IMG/VR virus record: IMGVR_UViG_3300029184_000028 | Reading direction: 5' to 3' (one strand) | Source of the DNA: a virus | Lineage: Duplodnaviria > Heunggongvirae > Uroviricota > Caudoviricetes | DNA length: 8,176 nt | Shown here: positions 2,010 through 7,965 of the stretch, in pieces | How the letters are laid out: every line of letters begins with the position of its first letter | How positions within the stretch are numbered: the stretch's first letter is position 1 | Notes under the pieces: model-generated | What the model saw: only the letters and a program-made list of their open reading frames with translations | Database searches by the model: none | What the model was told of the DNA's origin: nothing | Translations under genes and position numbers: made by a program

Positions 2010-2180
2010 ATGAATGAGCCTCGTTGTATTGCTCAGTTATTGCGTAACGAAAGCCCCAGGGCGATTGACTTCACCATCACCCACGGGAAGGGACGCAAGG
2101 GAATCATTATCCGCACCAAAAAACAGAGTCCGTTAAAAAAGGCTCTGACCTTTCTGAAAAGCCGGAGGGTCTGGAAATGA
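2010..2180 (+). CDS. Small hypothetical early protein (~56 aa; P2 orf78 position)
   Basis: In-frame ATG at 2010 (alternative ATG at 1983) following GGTGG at 2000-2004. Stop TGA at 2178-2180 overlaps the ATG of the next gene (ATGA), indicating translational coupling. No recognisable domain. Confidence 0.35.
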   Translation: MNEPRCIAQLLRNESPRAIDFTITHGKGRKGIIIRTKKQSPLKKALTFLKSRRVWK

Positions 2181-2677
2181 CAGTGATGACGCTCAATCTC
2201 GTTGAAAAACAGCCAGCAGCTATGCGCCGGATAATTGGTAAGCATCTGGCCGTCCCTCGCTGGCAGGAGACATGCGATTATTATAATCAGATGATGGAAC
2301 GCGAACGGCTAACGGTTTGCTTCCATGCGCAGTTAAAACAGCGTCACGCAACGATGCGTTTTGAAGAAATGAACGACGTCGAACGTGAACGGCTGGTTTG
2401 CGCAATTGATGAATTGCGTGGGGCATTCTCAAAACGCCGTCAGGTTGGCGCAAGTGAGTATGCATATATTAGTTTTTTAACAGTCAGTCAGCGTCGTACT
2501 TTATTTATGCATGCCGGATTGACTGAAAAAGAATTCAACCAGCCATACTGGCGAATTAATGAAGAATCATGTTACTGGCGTGATGCTTTATTCCGTGCAT
2601 TACGTGAATTATTCAGCCTGTTTGAGTATGCACCGACAATTCTGACGTCGGTAAAACCAGAGCAATATCTGCATTAA
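2177..2677 (+). CDS. B: P2 B-like replication protein (166 aa)
   Basis: ATG 2177 preceded by GGAGGG at 2165-2170 (spacing 6); stop TAA at 2675-2677. Length matches my recollection of P2 B (166 aa) and the gene is in the syntenic position between cox and A. Assignment rests on synteny and size, not on a motif. Confidence 0.6.
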   Translation: MTVMTLNLVEKQPAAMRRIIGKHLAVPRWQETCDYYNQMMERERLTVCFHAQLKQRHATMRFEEMNDVERERLVCAIDELRGAFSKRRQVGASEYAYISFLTVSQRRTLFMHAGLTEKEFNQPYWRINEESCYWRDALFRALRELFSLFEYAPTILTSVKPEQYLH

Positions 2678-2740: not shown

Positions 2741-2965
2741 ATGCATACAGTTTCTGAAAACAAGTGCGGTAAATACGCATTACTGCTGCAACAGGCCAGA
2801 GCCGAAGCACAGGCCGACGCAGCGACACGCTTTTCTTCTCATCTTGACGCCATGATTCGCCATATCACAAAGGCGGAGTTATCCCGCGTGGAGATAGTCG
2901 AGCTGCTCAGTCAAGAGTCGGAAAAATTTCACAATATCGGATTGTCTCGCGGGGAGGTGCTTTGA
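2741..2965 (+). CDS. Hypothetical small early protein (74 aa; P2 orf80 position)
   Basis: ATG 2741 preceded by GGAG at 2731-2734 (spacing 6). Stop TGA at 2963-2965 overlaps the next start (TGATG). Confidence 0.6.
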
Positions 2966-3267
2966 TGTCCTGTTCTCATTCAGTTGTATTACTGAATAAC
3001 GCCTTAAAAATCGCCGTTATGAAAAATGGCGATTTGTCTCTTATTCAAATTTGCCTTGATAAAGAAAAACGCGAAATAACTGAGTCTGTTATCGCGATTT
3101 ATCAGAACGAATTAAATCTCCTGTCTGATGTGGTCAATTTACTTGTTAAACGCGCTGTATTCCACAAGCAAATTTCCTCAGTGGATGAACTGACAAAATT
3201 AACGACAGAAATTGCCAGCTATTGCGCTGATGAATTTAAAAAACTTAACGACAAAAGGAGCTGGTAA
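2965..3267 (+). CDS. Hypothetical small early protein (100 aa; P2 orf81 position)
   Basis: ATG 2965 preceded by GGGGAGG at 2951-2957. Stop TAA at 3265-3267 overlaps the next start (TAATG). Codon usage is more AT-rich than its neighbours. Confidence 0.6.
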   Translation: MSCSHSVVLLNNALKIAVMKNGDLSLIQICLDKEKREITESVIAIYQNELNLLSDVVNLLVKRAVFHKQISSVDELTKLTTEIASYCADEFKKLNDKRSW

Positions 3268-3488
3268 TGCCGGACAACGTAGATTTTATTCAGGAACAAC
3301 AGGCTGAATTACTGGAGCGCCAGATTAACGCGGCAAGGGTAAAGCATTGCGGTGTTTCTGCGCTGGTTTGCGAAGAGTGTGACGCGCCAATACCTGCTGC
3401 CCGTCGTGCGNNNNNNNNNNNNNNNNNTTGTGTTTCCTGCCAGTCAGTCTTTGAAGCAAAAAACAAACATTACCGGAGAACGGCATGA
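3267..3488 (+). CDS. TraR/DksA-family C4 zinc-finger protein (73 aa; interrupted by a 17-N run)
   Basis: Paired CxxC motifs (CEEC ... CVSC) with spacing typical of the TraR/DksA C4 zinc finger. ATG 3267 preceded by AGGAG at 3256-3260. Reading frame is continuous across the N-run at 3411-3427. Stop TGA at 3486-3488 overlaps the next ATG. Confidence 0.75.
   Translation: MPDNVDFIQEQQAELLERQINAARVKHCGVSALVCEECDAPIPAARRAXXXXXXCVSCQSVFEAKNKHYRRTA
3411..3427. other. Run of 17 ambiguous bases (N): assembly gap or masked bases
   Basis: Directly visible in the sequence; lies inside the zinc-finger gene between its two CxxC pairs. Confidence 1.
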
Positions 3489-3760
3489 GTATTCGTATTG
3501 AAATTGGCGAACGTTATGTCGTTACCAGTGACAGCTTTCAGTTTATTCTCCACGAGAAAAAGAGAGCTGAAAGCGGTAAAAACGCCGGTCAGGAATGGCT
3601 GGCGGTGGTTGGTTATTACCCGAAATTAAGCCAGCTCGTTTCCGGCCTGATGCATCACGATATTCTGACCGGAAGCGCAAAGTCTTTTGCTGATTTAAAC
3701 GCGCAGGTTGAGCAACTCAGCAAGCGTTGTTCAGAGGCTTTTGGCTCATATGGCCGTTAA
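3485..3760 (+). CDS. Hypothetical small early protein (91 aa; P2 orf83 position)
   Basis: ATG 3485 preceded by GGAG at 3473-3476. Stop TAA at 3758-3760 overlaps the likely start of A. No recognisable motif. Confidence 0.6.
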   Translation: MSIRIEIGERYVVTSDSFQFILHEKKRAESGKNAGQEWLAVVGYYPKLSQLVSGLMHHDILTGSAKSFADLNAQVEQLSKRCSEAFGSYGR

Positions 3761-6056
3761 AGCCTCCGGGCGTTTTGTCCCTCCGTCAGTATTTGCCGCA
3801 GGCACCGGTGAGACGTTTACCGGTGCTTATGCATGGAACGCGCCACGCGAGGCCGTCGGGCGCGAAAGACCCCTTACACGTGACGAGATGCGTCAGGTGC
3901 AAGGTGTTTTATCCACGATTAATCGCCTGCCTTACTTTTTGCGCTCGCTGTTTACTTCACGCTATGACTACATCCGGCGCAATAAAAGCCCGGTGCACGG
4001 GTTTTATTTCCTCACATCCACTTTTCAGCGCCGTTTATGGCCGCGTATTGAGCGCGTGAATCAGCGCCATGAAATGAATACCGACGCGTCGTTGCTGTTT
4101 CTGGCAGAGCGTGACCATTATGCGCGTCTGCCGGGGATGAATGACAAGGAGCTGAAAAAGTTTGCCGCCCGTATCTCATCGCAGCTTTTCATGATGTATG
4201 AGGAACTCTGCGATGCATGGGTTGATGCACATGGCGAGAAAGAATCGCTGTTTACAGATGAGGCGCAGGCGCATCTGTATGGTCATGTTGCTGGCGCTGC
4301 ACGTGCTTTCAATATTTCCCCTCTCTACTGGAAAAAATACCGTAAAGGACAGATGACCACGAGGCAGGCATATTCTGCCATTGCCCGTCTGTTTAACGAT
4401 GAGTGGTGGACTCATCAGCTTAAAGGCCAGCGTATGCGCTGGCATGAGGCGTTACTGATTGCTGTCGGGGAGGTCAATAAAGACCGTTCTCCTTATGCCA
4501 GTAAACACGCCATTCGTGATGTGCGTGCGCGCCGCCAGGCAAATCTGGAATTTCTTAAATCGTGTGACCTTGAAAACAGGGAAACCGGCGAGCGCATCGA
4601 CCTTATCAGTAAGGTGATGGGCAGTATTTCTAATCCTGAAATTCGCCGGATGGAGCTGATGAACACCATTGCCGGTATTGAGCGTTACGCCGCCGCAGAG
4701 GGTGATGTGGGGATGTTTATCACGCTGACCGCGCCGTCAAAGTATCACCCGACTCGTCAGGTCAGAAAAGGCGAAAGTAAAACCGTTAAGCTTAATCACG
4801 GCTGGAACGATGAGGCATTTAATCCAAAGGATGCGCAGCGTTATCTCTGCCGCATCTGGAGCCTGATGCGCACGGCATTCAAGGATAATGATTTACAGGT
4901 CTACGGTTTGCGTGTCGTCGAGCCACACCACGACGGAACGCCGCACTGGCATATGATGCTTTTTTGTAATCCACGCCAGCGTAACCAGATTATCGAAATC
5001 ATGCGTCGCTATGCGCTCAAAGAGGATGGCGACGAAAGAGGAGCCGCGCGAAACCGTTTTCAGGCAAAGCACCTTAACCGGGGCGGTGCTGCGGGATATA
5101 TCGCGAAATACATTTCAAAAAATATCGACGGCTATGCACTAGATGGTCAGCTCGATAACGATACCGGTAAGCCGCTTAAAGATACTGCCGCGGCTGTTAC
5201 CGCATGGGCGTCAACGTGGCGCATCCCGCAATTTAAAACGGTTGGACTGCCGACAATGGGGGCTTACCGTGAACTACGCAAATTGCCTCGCGGCGTCAGT
5301 ATTGCTGATGAGTTTGACGAACGCGTCGAGGCTGCTCGCGCTGCCGCAGACAGTGGTGATTTTGCGTTGTATATCAGCGCGCAGGGTGGGGCAAATGTCC
5401 CGCGCGATTGCCAGACTGTCAGGGTCGCCCGTAGCCCGTCGGATGACGTTAACGAGTACGAGGAAGAAGTCGAGAGAGTGGTCGGCATTTACGCGCCGCA
5501 TCTCGGCGCGCGTCATATTCATATCACCAGAACGACGGACTGGCGCATTGTTCCGAAAGTGCCGGTCGTTGAGCCTTTAACTTTAAAAAGCGGCATCGCC
5601 GCGCCTCGGAGTCCTGTCAATAACTGTGGAAAGCTCACCGGTGGTGATACTTCGTTACCGGCTCCCACACCTTCTGAGCACGCCGCAGCAGTGCTTAATC
5701 TGGTTGATGACGGTGTTATCGAATGGAATGACCCGGAGGTCGTGAGGGCGCTCAGGGGCGCATTAAAACACGGCCTGAGAACACCAAACCGTCAGCAAAG
5801 AAACGGAAGCCCGTTAAAACCGAATGAAATAGCGCCATCGGCCAGGCTGACCCGGTCGGAGCGTATGCAAATTACCCGTATCCGTGTTGACCTTGCTCAG
5901 AACGGCATCTGGCCTCAGCGATGGGAACTTGAGGCGCTGGCGCGTGGCGCGACCGTAAATTATGACGGGAAAAAATTCACGTATCCGGTCACTGATGAGT
6001 GGCCGGGATTCTCAACAGTAATGGAGTGGACATCATGGCAAAAATTCACGAGGTAA
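3750..6056 (+). CDS. A: Replication initiation endonuclease A (HUH-superfamily rolling-circle initiator, ~769 aa from ATG 3750; ORF track starts at TTG 3708)
   Basis: HUH-type metal-binding motif EPHHDGTPHWHMMLF and a paired-tyrosine active site AGYIAKYISKNIDG (Y-x3-Y), as in phiX174 gpA / P2 A nickases. Length is close to P2 A (761 aa) and the gene is last in the early operon. Stop TAA at 6054-6056. Confidence 0.92.
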   Translation: MAVKASGRFVPPSVFAAGTGETFTGAYAWNAPREAVGRERPLTRDEMRQVQGVLSTINRLPYFLRSLFTSRYDYIRRNKSPVHGFYFLTSTFQRRLWPRIERVNQRHEMNTDASLLFLAERDHYARLPGMNDKELKKFAARISSQLFMMYEELCDAWVDAHGEKESLFTDEAQAHLYGHVAGAARAFNISPLYWKKYRKGQMTTRQAYSAIARLFNDEWWTHQLKGQRMRWHEALLIAVGEVNKDRSPYASKHAIRDVRARRQANLEFLKSCDLENRETGERIDLISKVMGSISNPEIRRMELMNTIAGIERYAAAEGDVGMFITLTAPSKYHPTRQVRKGESKTVKLNHGWNDEAFNPKDAQRYLCRIWSLMRTAFKDNDLQVYGLRVVEPHHDGTPHWHMMLFCNPRQRNQIIEIMRRYALKEDGDERGAARNRFQAKHLNRGGAAGYIAKYISKNIDGYALDGQLDNDTGKPLKDTAAAVTAWASTWRIPQFKTVGLPTMGAYRELRKLPRGVSIADEFDERVEAARAAADSGDFALYISAQGGANVPRDCQTVRVARSPSDDVNEYEEEVERVVGIYAPHLGARHIHITRTTDWRIVPKVPVVEPLTLKSGIAAPRSPVNNCGKLTGGDTSLPAPTPSEHAAAVLNLVDDGVIEWNDPEVVRALRGALKHGLRTPNRQQRNGSPLKPNEIAPSARLTRSERMQITRIRVDLAQNGIWPQRWELEALARGATVNYDGKKFTYPVTDEWPGFSTVMEWTSWQKFTR
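5601..5620 (+). other. Putative origin of replication / A-protein nick site inside the A coding sequence
   Basis: Sequence GCGCCTCGGAGTCCTGTCAA matches my recollection of the P2 ori nick region, which is known to lie within gene A. Recalled, not checked against a database. Confidence 0.45.
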
Positions 6057-6487
6057 AGCTTCACGCAAAATATTTCGACCTTGTGCTGGAAGGAAAGAAA
6101 CGTGCAGAGTTTCGGAAAAATGACCGTAATTATGAGCGCGGGGACACGCTGATTTTGCATGAATGGGTGCAGGGTGTGTTTACGGGGCGAAAGGTTGAAG
6201 CCCGGATAACAGATGTTACTGACCTGTCAGACTGGCTGGAAGATTATGTCTTGCTAAGTATTGAGCTGCTTAATACAAGCGCATATGAGATTGTGAACTG
6301 GAAAGAACTTAGTGAGCGTGGTCTGGTATTCAGAATTAATCATGAAATTATGCATCAGCTCGGCCTTGCTGTTATGTATGAACCAGAGACGGGGATGTCT
6401 GGCGGGGCAATGGTTGCCACGGATGGAGCATGGAACTATTCAGATGAACAGATTGAGAGTGCAAAGCAAAACGGGTGGCTTGGATAA
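6035..6487 (+). CDS. DUF3850/ASCH-like protein with unassigned C-terminal extension (~150 aa)
   Basis: ATG 6035 preceded by GGAG at 6023-6026 (spacing 8); overlaps the end of A by 22 nt. N-terminal segment KLHAKYFDLVLEGKKRAEFRKNDRNYERGDTLILHEW resembles the DUF3850/ASCH fold signature. Stop TAA at 6485-6487. Confidence 0.6.
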   Translation: MAKIHEVKLHAKYFDLVLEGKKRAEFRKNDRNYERGDTLILHEWVQGVFTGRKVEARITDVTDLSDWLEDYVLLSIELLNTSAYEIVNWKELSERGLVFRINHEIMHQLGLAVMYEPETGMSGGAMVATDGAWNYSDEQIESAKQNGWLG

Positions 6488-6766: not shown

Positions 6767-7708
6767 TTAAGTTAATTTTAATGAATGGTACTCTATCGAG
6801 CTGATTGTAGATGCGATATATTTACGATCATTTACAGAGAGTATTGCCGCTAGTAGACGACATACCAGAGCCTGCATTTGTAGCAATATATCGCTACCAT
6901 ATTGACAATCATTGATACTAGAGAAACCAAGCGGTTGCCCATTAAAAATGGCTTCATGAAAATTATCATTGCGTATAACTGAAACATTACATTCATCTGT
7001 TGCCCATGACGGGATTTTTACACCGTAATTTTCGCACATCCAATATACTCTATTTTGATGAGATGGTTTTTTCTCTTTAATGACTTTATCCCTTTCATCC
7101 CATGCTATAGCAAAACAGCAATCAAGAGCCATATAAAGATACTGGAATTTCTCAAAGGAAAGGTATAGTGGGTTATGTGATAGGAATAGGGAGTGTATCA
7201 CCGCAGCTATTCTTTTAATGGAGCGATCATCTTTTTGTTTGTCTTTTATATAGTTAAGTGCTAGCTCTATTACTTCTTTTTCAGAGCATCCAATGAGAAT
7301 AAAGTCAGTTAACTTAGTGGGCTTGATAGTGGTTGCATCAAGAAAACCAGCGTCAGTGGTTGTCAATCTTATACCCTTGAAAAAAGAGAGGCACCACACA
7401 ACAAAGTTGAGAGTTTCTAACGAGGATGTGTTTTTTAATTTTAGTGTGTGCGTTTTGGGCATGCCGAATACTCGGTAACTATAAGGCATTGTGCATGTGT
7501 CACCATTAAGGTTATATACCTTTCGATTCCCAGGGTATATCCAACCATTAACAACGTTTTTATCATTGTTAATACGTTCCACTTTCTCAATAAGACCGGG
7601 TAAAGTACGCAAAGAAAATTGTTCAGTCTCAATGTTAACTTCTACTGGATAGTATCCAAACTCCGAAATAATCTCATTTGGTTGCTGTTCATCAACTTCA
7701 CCTTGCAT
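6767..7708 (-). CDS. Hypothetical 313-aa protein; candidate anti-phage defence / abortive-infection cargo at the P2 variable locus
   Basis: Uninterrupted 942-nt ORF with ATG (7706-7708) preceded by GGAG at spacing 6. Antisense to the early operon and convergent with it. Markedly AT-rich relative to the A gene (by eye, roughly mid-30s % GC against low-to-mid 50s). No TM segment, Walker A or other motif I can assign. Lies in the interval between the replication genes and cos. Confidence 0.8.
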   Translation of the reverse strand: MQGEVDEQQPNEIISEFGYYPVEVNIETEQFSLRTLPGLIEKVERINNDKNVVNGWIYPGNRKVYNLNGDTCTMPYSYRVFGMPKTHTLKLKNTSSLETLNFVVWCLSFFKGIRLTTTDAGFLDATTIKPTKLTDFILIGCSEKEVIELALNYIKDKQKDDRSIKRIAAVIHSLFLSHNPLYLSFEKFQYLYMALDCCFAIAWDERDKVIKEKKPSHQNRVYWMCENYGVKIPSWATDECNVSVIRNDNFHEAIFNGQPLGFSSINDCQYGSDILLQMQALVCRLLAAILSVNDRKYIASTISSIEYHSLKLT

Positions 7709-7946: not shown

Positions 7947-7965
7947 GGCGAGGCGGGGAAAGCAC
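7947..7965. other. cos site: 19-nt P2/P4-type cohesive end GGCGAGGCGGGGAAAGCAC
   Basis: Exact match to the 19-nt cohesive-end sequence I recall for P2/P4/186. It is flanked on the right by G/T-rich repeats, as expected for a terminase recognition region. Confidence 0.7.

What the first reader, a model, noticed from the sequence alone, without database searches (positions are those of the whole stretch)
5601..5620. Replication origin embedded in the initiator's own coding sequence
The motif GCGCCTCGGAGTCCTGTCAA lies at roughly codon 617 of A, matching the P2 arrangement in which A nicks its own gene to start rolling-circle replication. Together with the HUH and Y-x3-Y motifs this makes a self-contained replication module.
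Basis: established knowledge. Interest (0 to 1): 0.4.

Follow-up and report, generated by a model that had tools for sequence, protein, structure and literature searches.

The report
P2 phage replication origin, already known
This is the well-known replication origin of a P2-type phage, the spot inside the initiator gene A where the A protein nicks the DNA to start rolling-circle copying; it is identical to P2's mapped origin and occurs in about 30% of complete E. coli genomes, so it is ordinary.

Summary
GCGCCTCGGAGTCCTGTCAA is at 5601-5620 (+), once in the window, starting at codon 618 of an intact gene A (3750-6056, 768 aa, 97% identical to P2 gpA).

The same 20-mer sits at the same codon in the P2 reference genome, which annotates the 'nick site at ori' inside it (29892 = window 5608).

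Comparison with other phages adds three points:
The core is CTCGGAGTCCTGTCAATAACTGT (5605-5627).
- Selection acts on the DNA, not the peptide. In 17 phages chosen only by protein similarity, third codon positions of the core are 94% identical and the encoded amino acids 61%. The HUH and Y-x3-Y blocks show the reverse.
- A GC-rich hairpin (5590-5602) lies 4-8 nt 5' of the nick in 16 of 17 of these phages (6 nt in the window), with compensatory changes. I could not check whether it has been described before.

The module is not fully self-contained. From my own knowledge, P2 also needs gene B (2177-2677) and host Rep helicase and polymerase.

Novelty: already known. Interest: low.

The parts
3750..6056 (+). 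Gene A, the rolling-circle initiator (HUH endonuclease, 768 aa), which carries the origin in its own coding sequence
   Evidence: 97% identical to P2 gpA over 761 aa. Pfam PF05840 Phage_GPA E = 6e-123 and PF23343 REP_ORF2-G2P E = 2e-7.
4923..4952 (+). Codons for PHHDGTPHWH, with the HUH metal-binding motif H399-W400-H401 at 4944-4952
   Evidence: Translation. One of only three islands of gene A that share k-mers with 15 distant phages. Amino-acid identity 0.91 and third-codon-position identity 0.55 across relatives.
5097..5111 (+). Codons for Y450-I-A-K-Y454, the two catalytic tyrosines (Y-x3-Y)
   Evidence: Translation. Amino-acid identity 0.84 and third-position identity 0.46 across relatives. 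The same residue numbers as P2 gpA; their catalytic role in P2 is from Odegrip & Haggard-Ljungquist 2001, as cited in PMC3986222.
5590..5602 (+). GC-rich hairpin-forming inverted repeat directly 5' of the nick: GCGGC (5590-5594), loop ATC (5595-5597), GCCGC (5598-5602). The stem ends 6 nt before the nick.
   Evidence: It is the centroid structure of the DNA fold, although the energy of the folded 66-nt segment (5575-5640) is no better than shuffled sequence. A perfect stem of at least 5 bp is present in 16 of 17 protein-selected phages, against 3.5% of control windows, and in 53 of 59 unique sequences against 4.4%. On the model-fitted alignment the 6-pair helix is 91% paired, 5 of its 6 pairs change on both sides, and the covariation score is 0.372 against 0.091 shuffled, 0 of 500.
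5601..5620 (+).
5605..5627 (+). Conserved nick core CTCGGAGTCCTGTCAATAACTGT. The P2-annotated nick position corresponds to G5608 (CTCG/GAG), inside codon Arg620.
   Evidence: The core consensus CTYGGASTYSTGKCARTAACTGT occurs once, on the coding strand, in the 3' part of gene A in all 18 fetched reference phages (P2 among them) and in the window; scores are 19-23 of 23, next best 15-18. Third codon positions are 0.94 identical against 0.61 for amino acids. It has the highest exact 10-mer sharing in the whole gene, 11 of 15 at 5618. The nick position comes from the P2 record.
2177..2677 (+). Gene B, the accessory replication gene of P2 (lagging-strand synthesis). It lies in the same early operon, so the A/ori module is not fully self-contained.
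   Evidence: Same position and length as P2 B. Annotated 'replication protein B' in the 98%-identical phage vB_YpM_46. No Pfam or NCBIfam hit.

Best explanation
Window 5590-5627 is the origin of rolling-circle replication of a P2-type (Peduovirus) phage or prophage, lying inside the coding sequence of its initiator gene A.

Shown here: the sequence is identical to the annotated nick region of P2. It sits at the same codon of a 97%-identical A protein that has the HUH motif and the Y450/Y454 pair. The block is single-copy, always on the coding strand, and conserved across Peduoviridae at the DNA level rather than the protein level.

From my own knowledge of P2 and of HUH initiators, not checked here: the joining is through a tyrosine; the free 3'-OH primes leading-strand synthesis with host Rep helicase and Pol III; the second tyrosine cuts the regenerated origin to end a round and start the next; and A acts preferentially in cis, which having ori inside its own gene would favour.

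Inferred here: the conserved hairpin 4-8 nt 5' of the nick is part of the recognition element. It would be bound as a stem-loop while the single-stranded core is fed into the active site, as in relaxase oriT sites. It may form when supercoiled DNA extrudes it, or on the displaced single strand at termination.
For: - Identity with P2: the 20-mer is identical and unique in both the window and P2, and the P2 record places 'nick site at ori' (29892) at the 8th base.
- Other annotated records: the 186 and fiAA91-ss records mark the homologous block as rep_origin.
- The initiator: the A protein is 97% identical to P2 gpA, with Phage_GPA at E = 6e-123.
- Motifs: HUH and YIAKY are present.
- Breadth: all 17 phages of different genera chosen by tblastn alone carry one copy of the core in the 3' part of gene A on the coding strand.
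- Unbiased sample: 79 of 80 IMG/VR loci chosen only by catalytic-domain similarity carry it, and the 80th is cut short.
- Reading frame: the core is in the same frame in 134 of 134 matches, and lies in an ORF with both catalytic motifs in 87 of 96 complete ORFs.
- Uniqueness: a covariance model finds exactly one hit per locus in 73 of 75 sources (0.6 Mb, both strands) and none in the other two.
- DNA-level selection: third codon positions are 0.94 identical against 0.61 for amino acids in the core. The HUH block gives 0.55 against 0.91 and the YxxKY block 0.46 against 0.84.
- Literature: ori lies within gene A, the experimentally determined origin is at 29,892, and the nick-site sequence is conserved among Peduovirinae (PMC8537503; PMC3986222).
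Against: - Nothing was tested on this particular element. Nicking, covalent attachment and origin activity are all inferred from P2.
- I could not read the primary mapping papers, so the exact phosphodiester bond (5' or 3' of G5608) and the nicked strand rest on the GenBank feature and my recollection.
- The window as a whole is about 97-98% identical to known P2-like phages. Identity of the 20-mer on its own therefore says no more than homology.
- The 66-nt segment around the hairpin (5575-5640) folds no better than shuffled sequence (z = -0.17). Support for the hairpin is comparative only.
- The structural alignment used for pair counts was fitted to the model.
- GC skew in the window shows no feature at the origin.
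Confidence: 0.93

Rival explanations
1. The block is conserved because the peptide it encodes (…PRSPVNNC…) matters for A protein function, and its overlap with the origin is incidental or absent in this element.
For: The reading frame of the core is the same in 134 of 134 matches. An N-N-C tripeptide is nearly invariant across relatives.
Against: Third codon positions are the most conserved (0.94) and amino acids are only 0.61 identical. The variable sites are first and second positions that change the residue (R/W, S/T, P/S/R/C). This is the opposite of the pattern in the true catalytic motifs. For many distant phages tblastn similarity to A stops near residue 512, yet the DNA block is still found about 500 nt downstream. 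The P2 nick was mapped experimentally to this block.
Confidence: 0.03
2. The conserved hairpin plus core acts in the A mRNA, for example as a pause, processing or translation-control signal that contributes to cis action, rather than, or as well as, in DNA.
For: The element is always on the coding strand and so is always transcribed. The hairpin covaries as an RNA stem would. Sequence alone cannot separate RNA from DNA structure.
Against: No Rfam family matches. The core coincides with a mapped DNA nick site. HUH enzymes are known to recognise single-stranded DNA hairpins next to their cleavage sites (my own knowledge). No RNA-level role has been reported to my knowledge.
Confidence: 0.04
3. 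The sequence is a relic: the element is a defective prophage, and the origin or A is no longer functional.
For: The window spans a joined cos site (7947-7965), as in a prophage or circular form. Some IMG/VR loci carry the core inside short ORFs of 27-269 aa, which suggests disrupted A genes exist.
Against: Here gene A is one intact 768-codon ORF with all motifs. The neighbouring early genes are intact. The window is 98% identical to plaque-forming phages vB_YpM_46 and VB-YPM-4 over 96-97% of its length.
Confidence: 0.03

Closest known systems
Bacteriophage P2 ori / gene A (NC_001895, nick site 29892)
   Same: Identical 20-mer and identical 49-nt segment (hairpin plus core). Same codon of gene A. 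A protein 97% identical. Same gene order: int-C-cox-B-orf80..83-A.
   Different: A is 7 residues longer at the C-terminus (768 against 761 aa). The cargo downstream of A differs: a 162-aa ORF combining DUF3850/ASCH with DUF7415, and an unknown 313-aa ORF, where P2 has orf91, tin and old. None of this touches the origin.
Phage 186 ori inside gene A (NC_001317, rep_origin 28576)
   Same: Same architecture: core CTCGGAGTTCTGTCAATAACTGT on the coding strand in the 3' part of gene A, preceded by a GC hairpin (AGGGCGC ttct GCGCCCT).
   Different: The A proteins are only about 36% identical. The core differs at one position (C to T). The stem sequence, loop length (4 against 3 nt) and stem-to-nick spacing (4 against 6 nt) differ. 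The 186 origin is annotated by similarity and electron microscopy, not by nick mapping.
phiX174 gene A protein and its origin (two-tyrosine HUH Rep; my own knowledge)
   Same: An HUH initiator with two tyrosines spaced Y-x3-Y, cis-acting, whose nick site lies within its own gene on the coding strand. Rolling-circle replication with host Rep helicase.
   Different: No detectable relation between the origin sequences was tested or claimed here. As far as I recall the phiX174 origin is not preceded by a conserved GC hairpin. P2 is a 33-kb dsDNA tailed phage, not a ssDNA microvirus.
Conjugative relaxase oriT sites (e.g. TrwC/R388, TraI/F; my own knowledge)
   Same: An inverted repeat lies a few nucleotides 5' of the nick, with a conserved single-stranded core around the nick. 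The enzyme is an HUH protein with catalytic tyrosines.
   Different: This is a resemblance of layout only. gpA belongs to Pfam Phage_GPA, not to a relaxase family. Binding of the hairpin by A is untested. The site is an origin of vegetative replication inside a coding sequence, not a transfer origin.

Membership tests
P2-type origin of replication (Peduoviridae gene A ori) | Sequence matches the experimentally mapped P2 nick region | tested here: met
   20 of 20 identical to P2 29885-29904, which contains the annotated nick site 29892. The whole 49-nt segment scores the same as P2 with model R1 (72.0 bits).
P2-type origin of replication (Peduoviridae gene A ori) | Located inside gene A, on its coding strand, in the 3' third of the gene | tested here: met
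   Codons 618-624 of the 768 codons. The same arrangement is seen in 17 phages of other genera and in 79 of 80 protein-selected IMG/VR loci.
P2-type origin of replication (Peduoviridae gene A ori) | Single copy per genome | tested here: met
   One match in the window at up to 3 mismatches. One covariance-model hit in each of the 73 sources that have one, out of 75. Only 8.2 kb of this element is available.
P2-type origin of replication (Peduoviridae gene A ori) | [quoted passage not shown] | not testable with these tools
   Needs biochemistry or in vivo end mapping. Known for P2 from the literature restated in PMC8537503.
Phage_GPA / HUH rolling-circle initiators with two tyrosines | Significant match to Pfam PF05840 | tested here: met
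   E = 6.2e-123, 410 bits, profile 1-321 of 321.
Phage_GPA / HUH rolling-circle initiators with two tyrosines | HUH motif and Y-x3-Y catalytic pair | tested here: met
   H399-W400-H401 and Y450/Y454. These columns are invariant in the alignment of 11 catalytic domains.
Phage_GPA / HUH rolling-circle initiators with two tyrosines | HUH fold (structure) | not tested
   No PDB relative by sequence. No structure prediction was run.
Relaxase-like 'hairpin 5' of nic' origin layout (resemblance only) | Conserved inverted repeat a few nt 5' of the nick, kept by compensatory changes | tested here: met
   16 of 17 phages have a stem of at least 5 bp ending 4-8 nt before the nick, against 3.5% of controls. 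5 of the 6 pairs of the main helix change on both sides, and covariation is 0.372 against 0.091.
Relaxase-like 'hairpin 5' of nic' origin layout (resemblance only) | The initiator binds the hairpin and needs it for cleavage | not testable with these tools
   Needs binding and cleavage assays with stem mutants.

The most novel reading that the evidence does not exclude
The P2-family origin is a bipartite element rather than the bare 20-mer usually quoted. It has a GC hairpin, kept by compensatory substitutions that override the encoded amino acids, 4-8 nt 5' of the nick, followed by a 23-nt core. The core comes in two linked variants, CTCGGAGT… and CTTGGACT…. On this reading gpA recognises its origin the way relaxases recognise oriT, and the two core variants mark initiator/origin specificity groups. 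If the hairpin has not been described, this is a small refinement of a classic system and a clean case of DNA structure dominating codon choice inside a gene.
Probability: 0.3. Interest if true: 0.3.

Novelty: already known. Interest (0 to 1): 0.08.

Why it matters
For the scan it matters little. The finding re-identifies a classic, experimentally mapped origin in a very common prophage family; the 49-nt segment is in 1602 of 5426 complete E. coli genomes. It does give a firm annotation: origin hairpin at 5590-5602, nick core at 5605-5627, inferred nick at 5608.

The comparative results have some teaching value. They show quantitatively that a replication origin embedded in a gene can reverse the usual codon-position conservation pattern. 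They also show that a hairpin next to the nick is maintained across Peduoviridae. Both suggest simple mutational experiments on how gpA recognises its origin.

Tried and rejected
- Primary literature: the mapping paper (PMID 7816607 / PMC332061), the P2 review (PMC4836473) and the K139 and HP1 genome papers (PMC135448, PMC145952) are not held. A full-text search for the 20-mer found nothing. The exact bond cut, the nicked strand and the minimal origin could therefore not be checked against the original data.
- Single-sequence folding of 5575-5640 on either strand: the hairpin is predicted, but the energy is no better than shuffles (z = -0.17 and 0.05). It was used only together with the comparative data.
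- GC skew across the window follows transcription direction and shows nothing at the origin.
- Rfam: no family matches in the window.
- PDB by sequence: no relative of A.
- NCBIfam: no model for A or B.
- The search for related loci with the catalytic-domain alignment returned only close relatives (at least 70% identity). It served as an unbiased check within the P2 clade, not as a source of diversity.
- An apparent shared 'AATAAC' with the phiX174 origin sequence as I recall it was considered. I dropped it as untested and at a different spacing.
- Bias caveat: loci L015-L134 were fetched by an exact pattern match to the core. They were not used to argue that the core is conserved, only for variation in the flanking hairpin.

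Full report
**1. The observation**

The 20-mer GCGCCTCGGAGTCCTGTCAA is at window 5601-5620 on the + strand. It is the only match in the window even with three mismatches allowed, and none of 200 dinucleotide-preserving shuffles produced one.

It lies in a long ORF (3708-6056). Its homology-defined start at 3750 gives a 768-aa protein. (5601-3750)/3 = 617, so the motif begins with codon 618. The local peptide is KSGIAAPRSPVNNCG.

**2. What the window is**

The window is the early region of a P2-type phage or prophage.
- It is 98% identical over 96-97% of its length to Yersinia phages VB-YPM-4 and vB_YpM_46, genus Peduovirus.
- Gene order is int (146-1141, -), repressor C (1235-1552, -), cox, B (2177-2677), four small ORFs, A (3750-6056), a DUF3850/ASCH ORF, and an unknown 313-aa ORF on the - strand.
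- A joined cos site lies at 7947-7965.
- The A protein is 97% identical to P2 gpA with no gaps over 761 residues and matches Pfam Phage_GPA at E = 6e-123.

**3.

In the P2 reference records (NC_001895 and AF063097) the identical 20-mer is at 29885-29904. The records carry a rep_origin feature, 'nick site at ori', at 29892, the eighth base of the motif. That corresponds to G5608 in the window (CTCG/GAG), inside codon Arg620.

Phage fiAA91-ss annotates the same 20-mer plus one further base as 'rep_origin, located within gene A'. In phage 186 the homologous block is at L003 3007-3026, four mismatches from the 20-mer, and contains that record's rep_origin at 3015 ('located by similarity with P2; consistent with electron microscopy mapping').

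[quoted passage not shown] The primary papers were not available to me.

**4. Is it more than shared ancestry of a coding sequence?**

The window is nearly identical to P2 throughout, so identity of the 20-mer alone proves little. I therefore looked at distant relatives chosen without reference to the motif.

A tblastn search with the A protein found 386 phage records. I fetched 17 of these from different genera: 186, HP1, YenM06.16-2, PV94, SMHB1, P88, Ec503458, Kp4873-2, phiMhaA1, Burkholderia ST79 and PK23, K139/kappa, SopEPhi, Pseudoalteromonas ACA1 and C5a, Vibrio 10N.286.54.F9 and L9-1. Apart from YenM06.16-2 (57%), their A proteins are about 29-39% identical to the window's.
- Every one, and P2 itself, has a single clear match to CTYGGASTYSTGKCARTAACTGT on the coding strand in the 3' part of gene A. 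Scores are 19-23 of 23, and the next best anywhere in each locus is 15-18.
- For many of them, detectable protein similarity stops near residue 512, about 500 nt upstream of the block.
- Of 80 IMG/VR loci selected only by similarity to the catalytic domain (residues 300-520), 79 carry the core. The 80th locus ends before the region.
- Within gene A, only three islands share k-mers with 15 distant phages: the HUH codons, the Y-x3-Y codons and the origin. The origin has the highest exact 10-mer sharing, 11 of 15 at 5618.

**5. DNA-level or protein-level selection?**

The comparison used 17 sequences: the window plus the fetched relatives without Ec503458, whose core matches P88's.

| Block | Codon position 1 | Codon position 2 | Codon position 3 | Amino acids |
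|---|---|---|---|---|
| Origin core (eight codons) | 0.75 | 0.78 | 0.94 | 0.61 |
| HUH block | 0.93 | 0.94 | 0.55 | 0.91 |
| YxxKYxxK block | 0.81 | 0.93 | 0.46 | 0.84 |

Values are mean pairwise identity. In the origin the substitutions that do occur change the amino acid (R/W, S/T, P/S/R/C), while the normally free third positions are almost frozen. This is the signature of selection on the DNA sequence.

**6. A hairpin next to the nick**

Directly 5' of the core the window has GCGGC-atc-GCCGC (5590-5602). In this sequence alone it is unremarkable: it is the centroid structure, but the 66-nt segment around it (5575-5640) folds no better than shuffles.

Comparatively it is striking.
- 16 of the 17 sequences compared (the window and 15 relatives) have a perfect stem of at least 5 bp ending 4-8 nt before the nick. 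Only 3.5% of 748 control windows in the same genes do.
- Among 59 unique sequences, including pattern-fetched IMG/VR loci, 53 have one, against 4.4% of controls. There are 22 different arm sequences.
- I built a covariance model from 40 sequences. It finds exactly one hit in each of 73 of 75 sources over 0.6 Mb.
- On the resulting alignment the 6-pair helix is 91% paired and 5 of its 6 pairs change on both sides. The covariation score is 0.372, against 0.091 in shuffles (0 of 500) and at most 0.081 with slid partners. That alignment is fitted to the model, so it leans towards the structure. The ungapped control does not have this bias.
- The peptides encoded across the stem differ widely (GIAAP, ASGAP, GASAP, GGSAAS, GELAPP, VGAADL, GASGSS). 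One IMG/VR locus keeps the stem as GGAATC/GATTCC, which I read in frame as Gly-Ile…Asp-Ser. The pairing, not the protein, is what is kept.
- I could not find out whether this inverted repeat has been described before.

**7. Mechanism**

Shown: sequence identity with a mapped origin, a near-identical initiator with intact catalytic motifs, single copy, and DNA-level conservation.

From the literature on P2: A nicks one strand at ori and attaches covalently to the 5' end, and replication is rolling-circle.

From my own knowledge of P2 and HUH initiators: attachment is through a tyrosine, with Y450 and Y454 having non-equivalent roles. The 3'-OH is extended with host Rep helicase and Pol III. [quoted passage not shown] A acts preferentially in cis.

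Inferred: the hairpin is part of what A recognises, in a layout like that of relaxase oriT sites. It could form by extrusion from supercoiled DNA at initiation, or on the displaced single strand at termination.

The nicked strand is taken to be the coding strand. The exact bond (5' or 3' of G5608) is uncertain by one base, because I have only the GenBank point feature.

**8. Comparison, novelty and verdict**

This is a member of the P2-type origin/initiator system by every feature testable here. Only the biochemical features remain untested.

It is already known and extremely common. The 49-nt segment occurs in 1602 of 5426 complete E. coli genomes, and in the matches listed it lies under genes annotated 'replication endonuclease'.

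The element is larger than the 20-mer. And the module is not fully self-contained, because P2 replication also needs B and host factors.

Interest is low. The only mildly new material is the quantitative evidence for DNA-level selection, the covarying hairpin, and the two linked core variants (CTCGGAGT against CTTGGACT).

Noticed in passing
window 5605-5627; loci L003-L014 and L215-L220: The nick core comes in two linked variants. CTCGGAGTYCTGTC… is found in P2, 186, K139, PV94, SMHB1 and Kp4873-2. CTTGGACTNGTGKC… is found in HP1, P88, SopEPhi, phiMhaA1, Burkholderia ST79/PK23 and Pseudoalteromonas ACA1/C5a. The C/T and G/C changes either side of the nick go together, which may mark initiator/origin specificity groups.
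   Followed up: partly
window 5560-5589 (GTTGAGCCTTTAACTTTAAAAAG); same position in relatives: Many relatives have one or two copies of GTTGAC / TTGAC(C/T)TT about 10-30 nt upstream of the hairpin, for example 'gttgacgttgagcctttgacttt' and 'gccgttgacgttaag'. In the window the proximal copy reads TTTAACTTT. This could be a further DNA element or just the conserved peptide (…VVEPLTLK…).
   Followed up: no
window 6767-7708 (-): A 313-aa ORF in a low-GC stretch (0.37-0.41) occupies the position where P2 carries tin and old. It has no Pfam, PADLOC or NCBIfam match. It is also present in vB_YpM_46 as a hypothetical protein. P2-like phages are reported to carry anti-phage defence hotspots (abstract of PMC13586616). 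From my own knowledge the old/tin position is one of them, so this may be an uncharacterised defence gene.
   Followed up: partly
window 7947-7965: The 19-nt P2 cohesive-end sequence GGCGAGGCGGGGAAAGCAC is present and continuous with sequence on both sides. The window therefore comes from a prophage or a circular or concatemeric form, not from a linear virion end. The origin nick is about 2.3 kb from cos.
   Followed up: partly
window 5999-6487 (+) and the end of gene A at 6056: Gene A is 7 codons longer than in P2 and overlaps the next ORF. That ORF combines DUF3850/ASCH with DUF7415 in 162 aa, whereas P2's orf91 is a 109-aa DUF3850 protein.
   Followed up: no
loci L038, L091, L093 (27-aa ORFs); L061, L118, L121, L123 (76-269 aa): In several IMG/VR contigs the origin core sits in a short ORF without the upstream catalytic motifs. 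This suggests split, frameshifted or truncated A genes that still keep the origin.
   Followed up: no
locus L127 1053-1101: One contig has a perfect nick core but no hairpin upstream (…TTGACCTTGACCTTAATCACC|CTCGG…). It is the clearest exception to the hairpin rule.
   Followed up: no
window 2962-3267 and 3485-3760: Two of the small early ORFs upstream of A (the P2 orf81 and orf83 equivalents) both match DUF5405 (E = 1.5e-33 and 2e-13). They are therefore paralogues.
   Followed up: no
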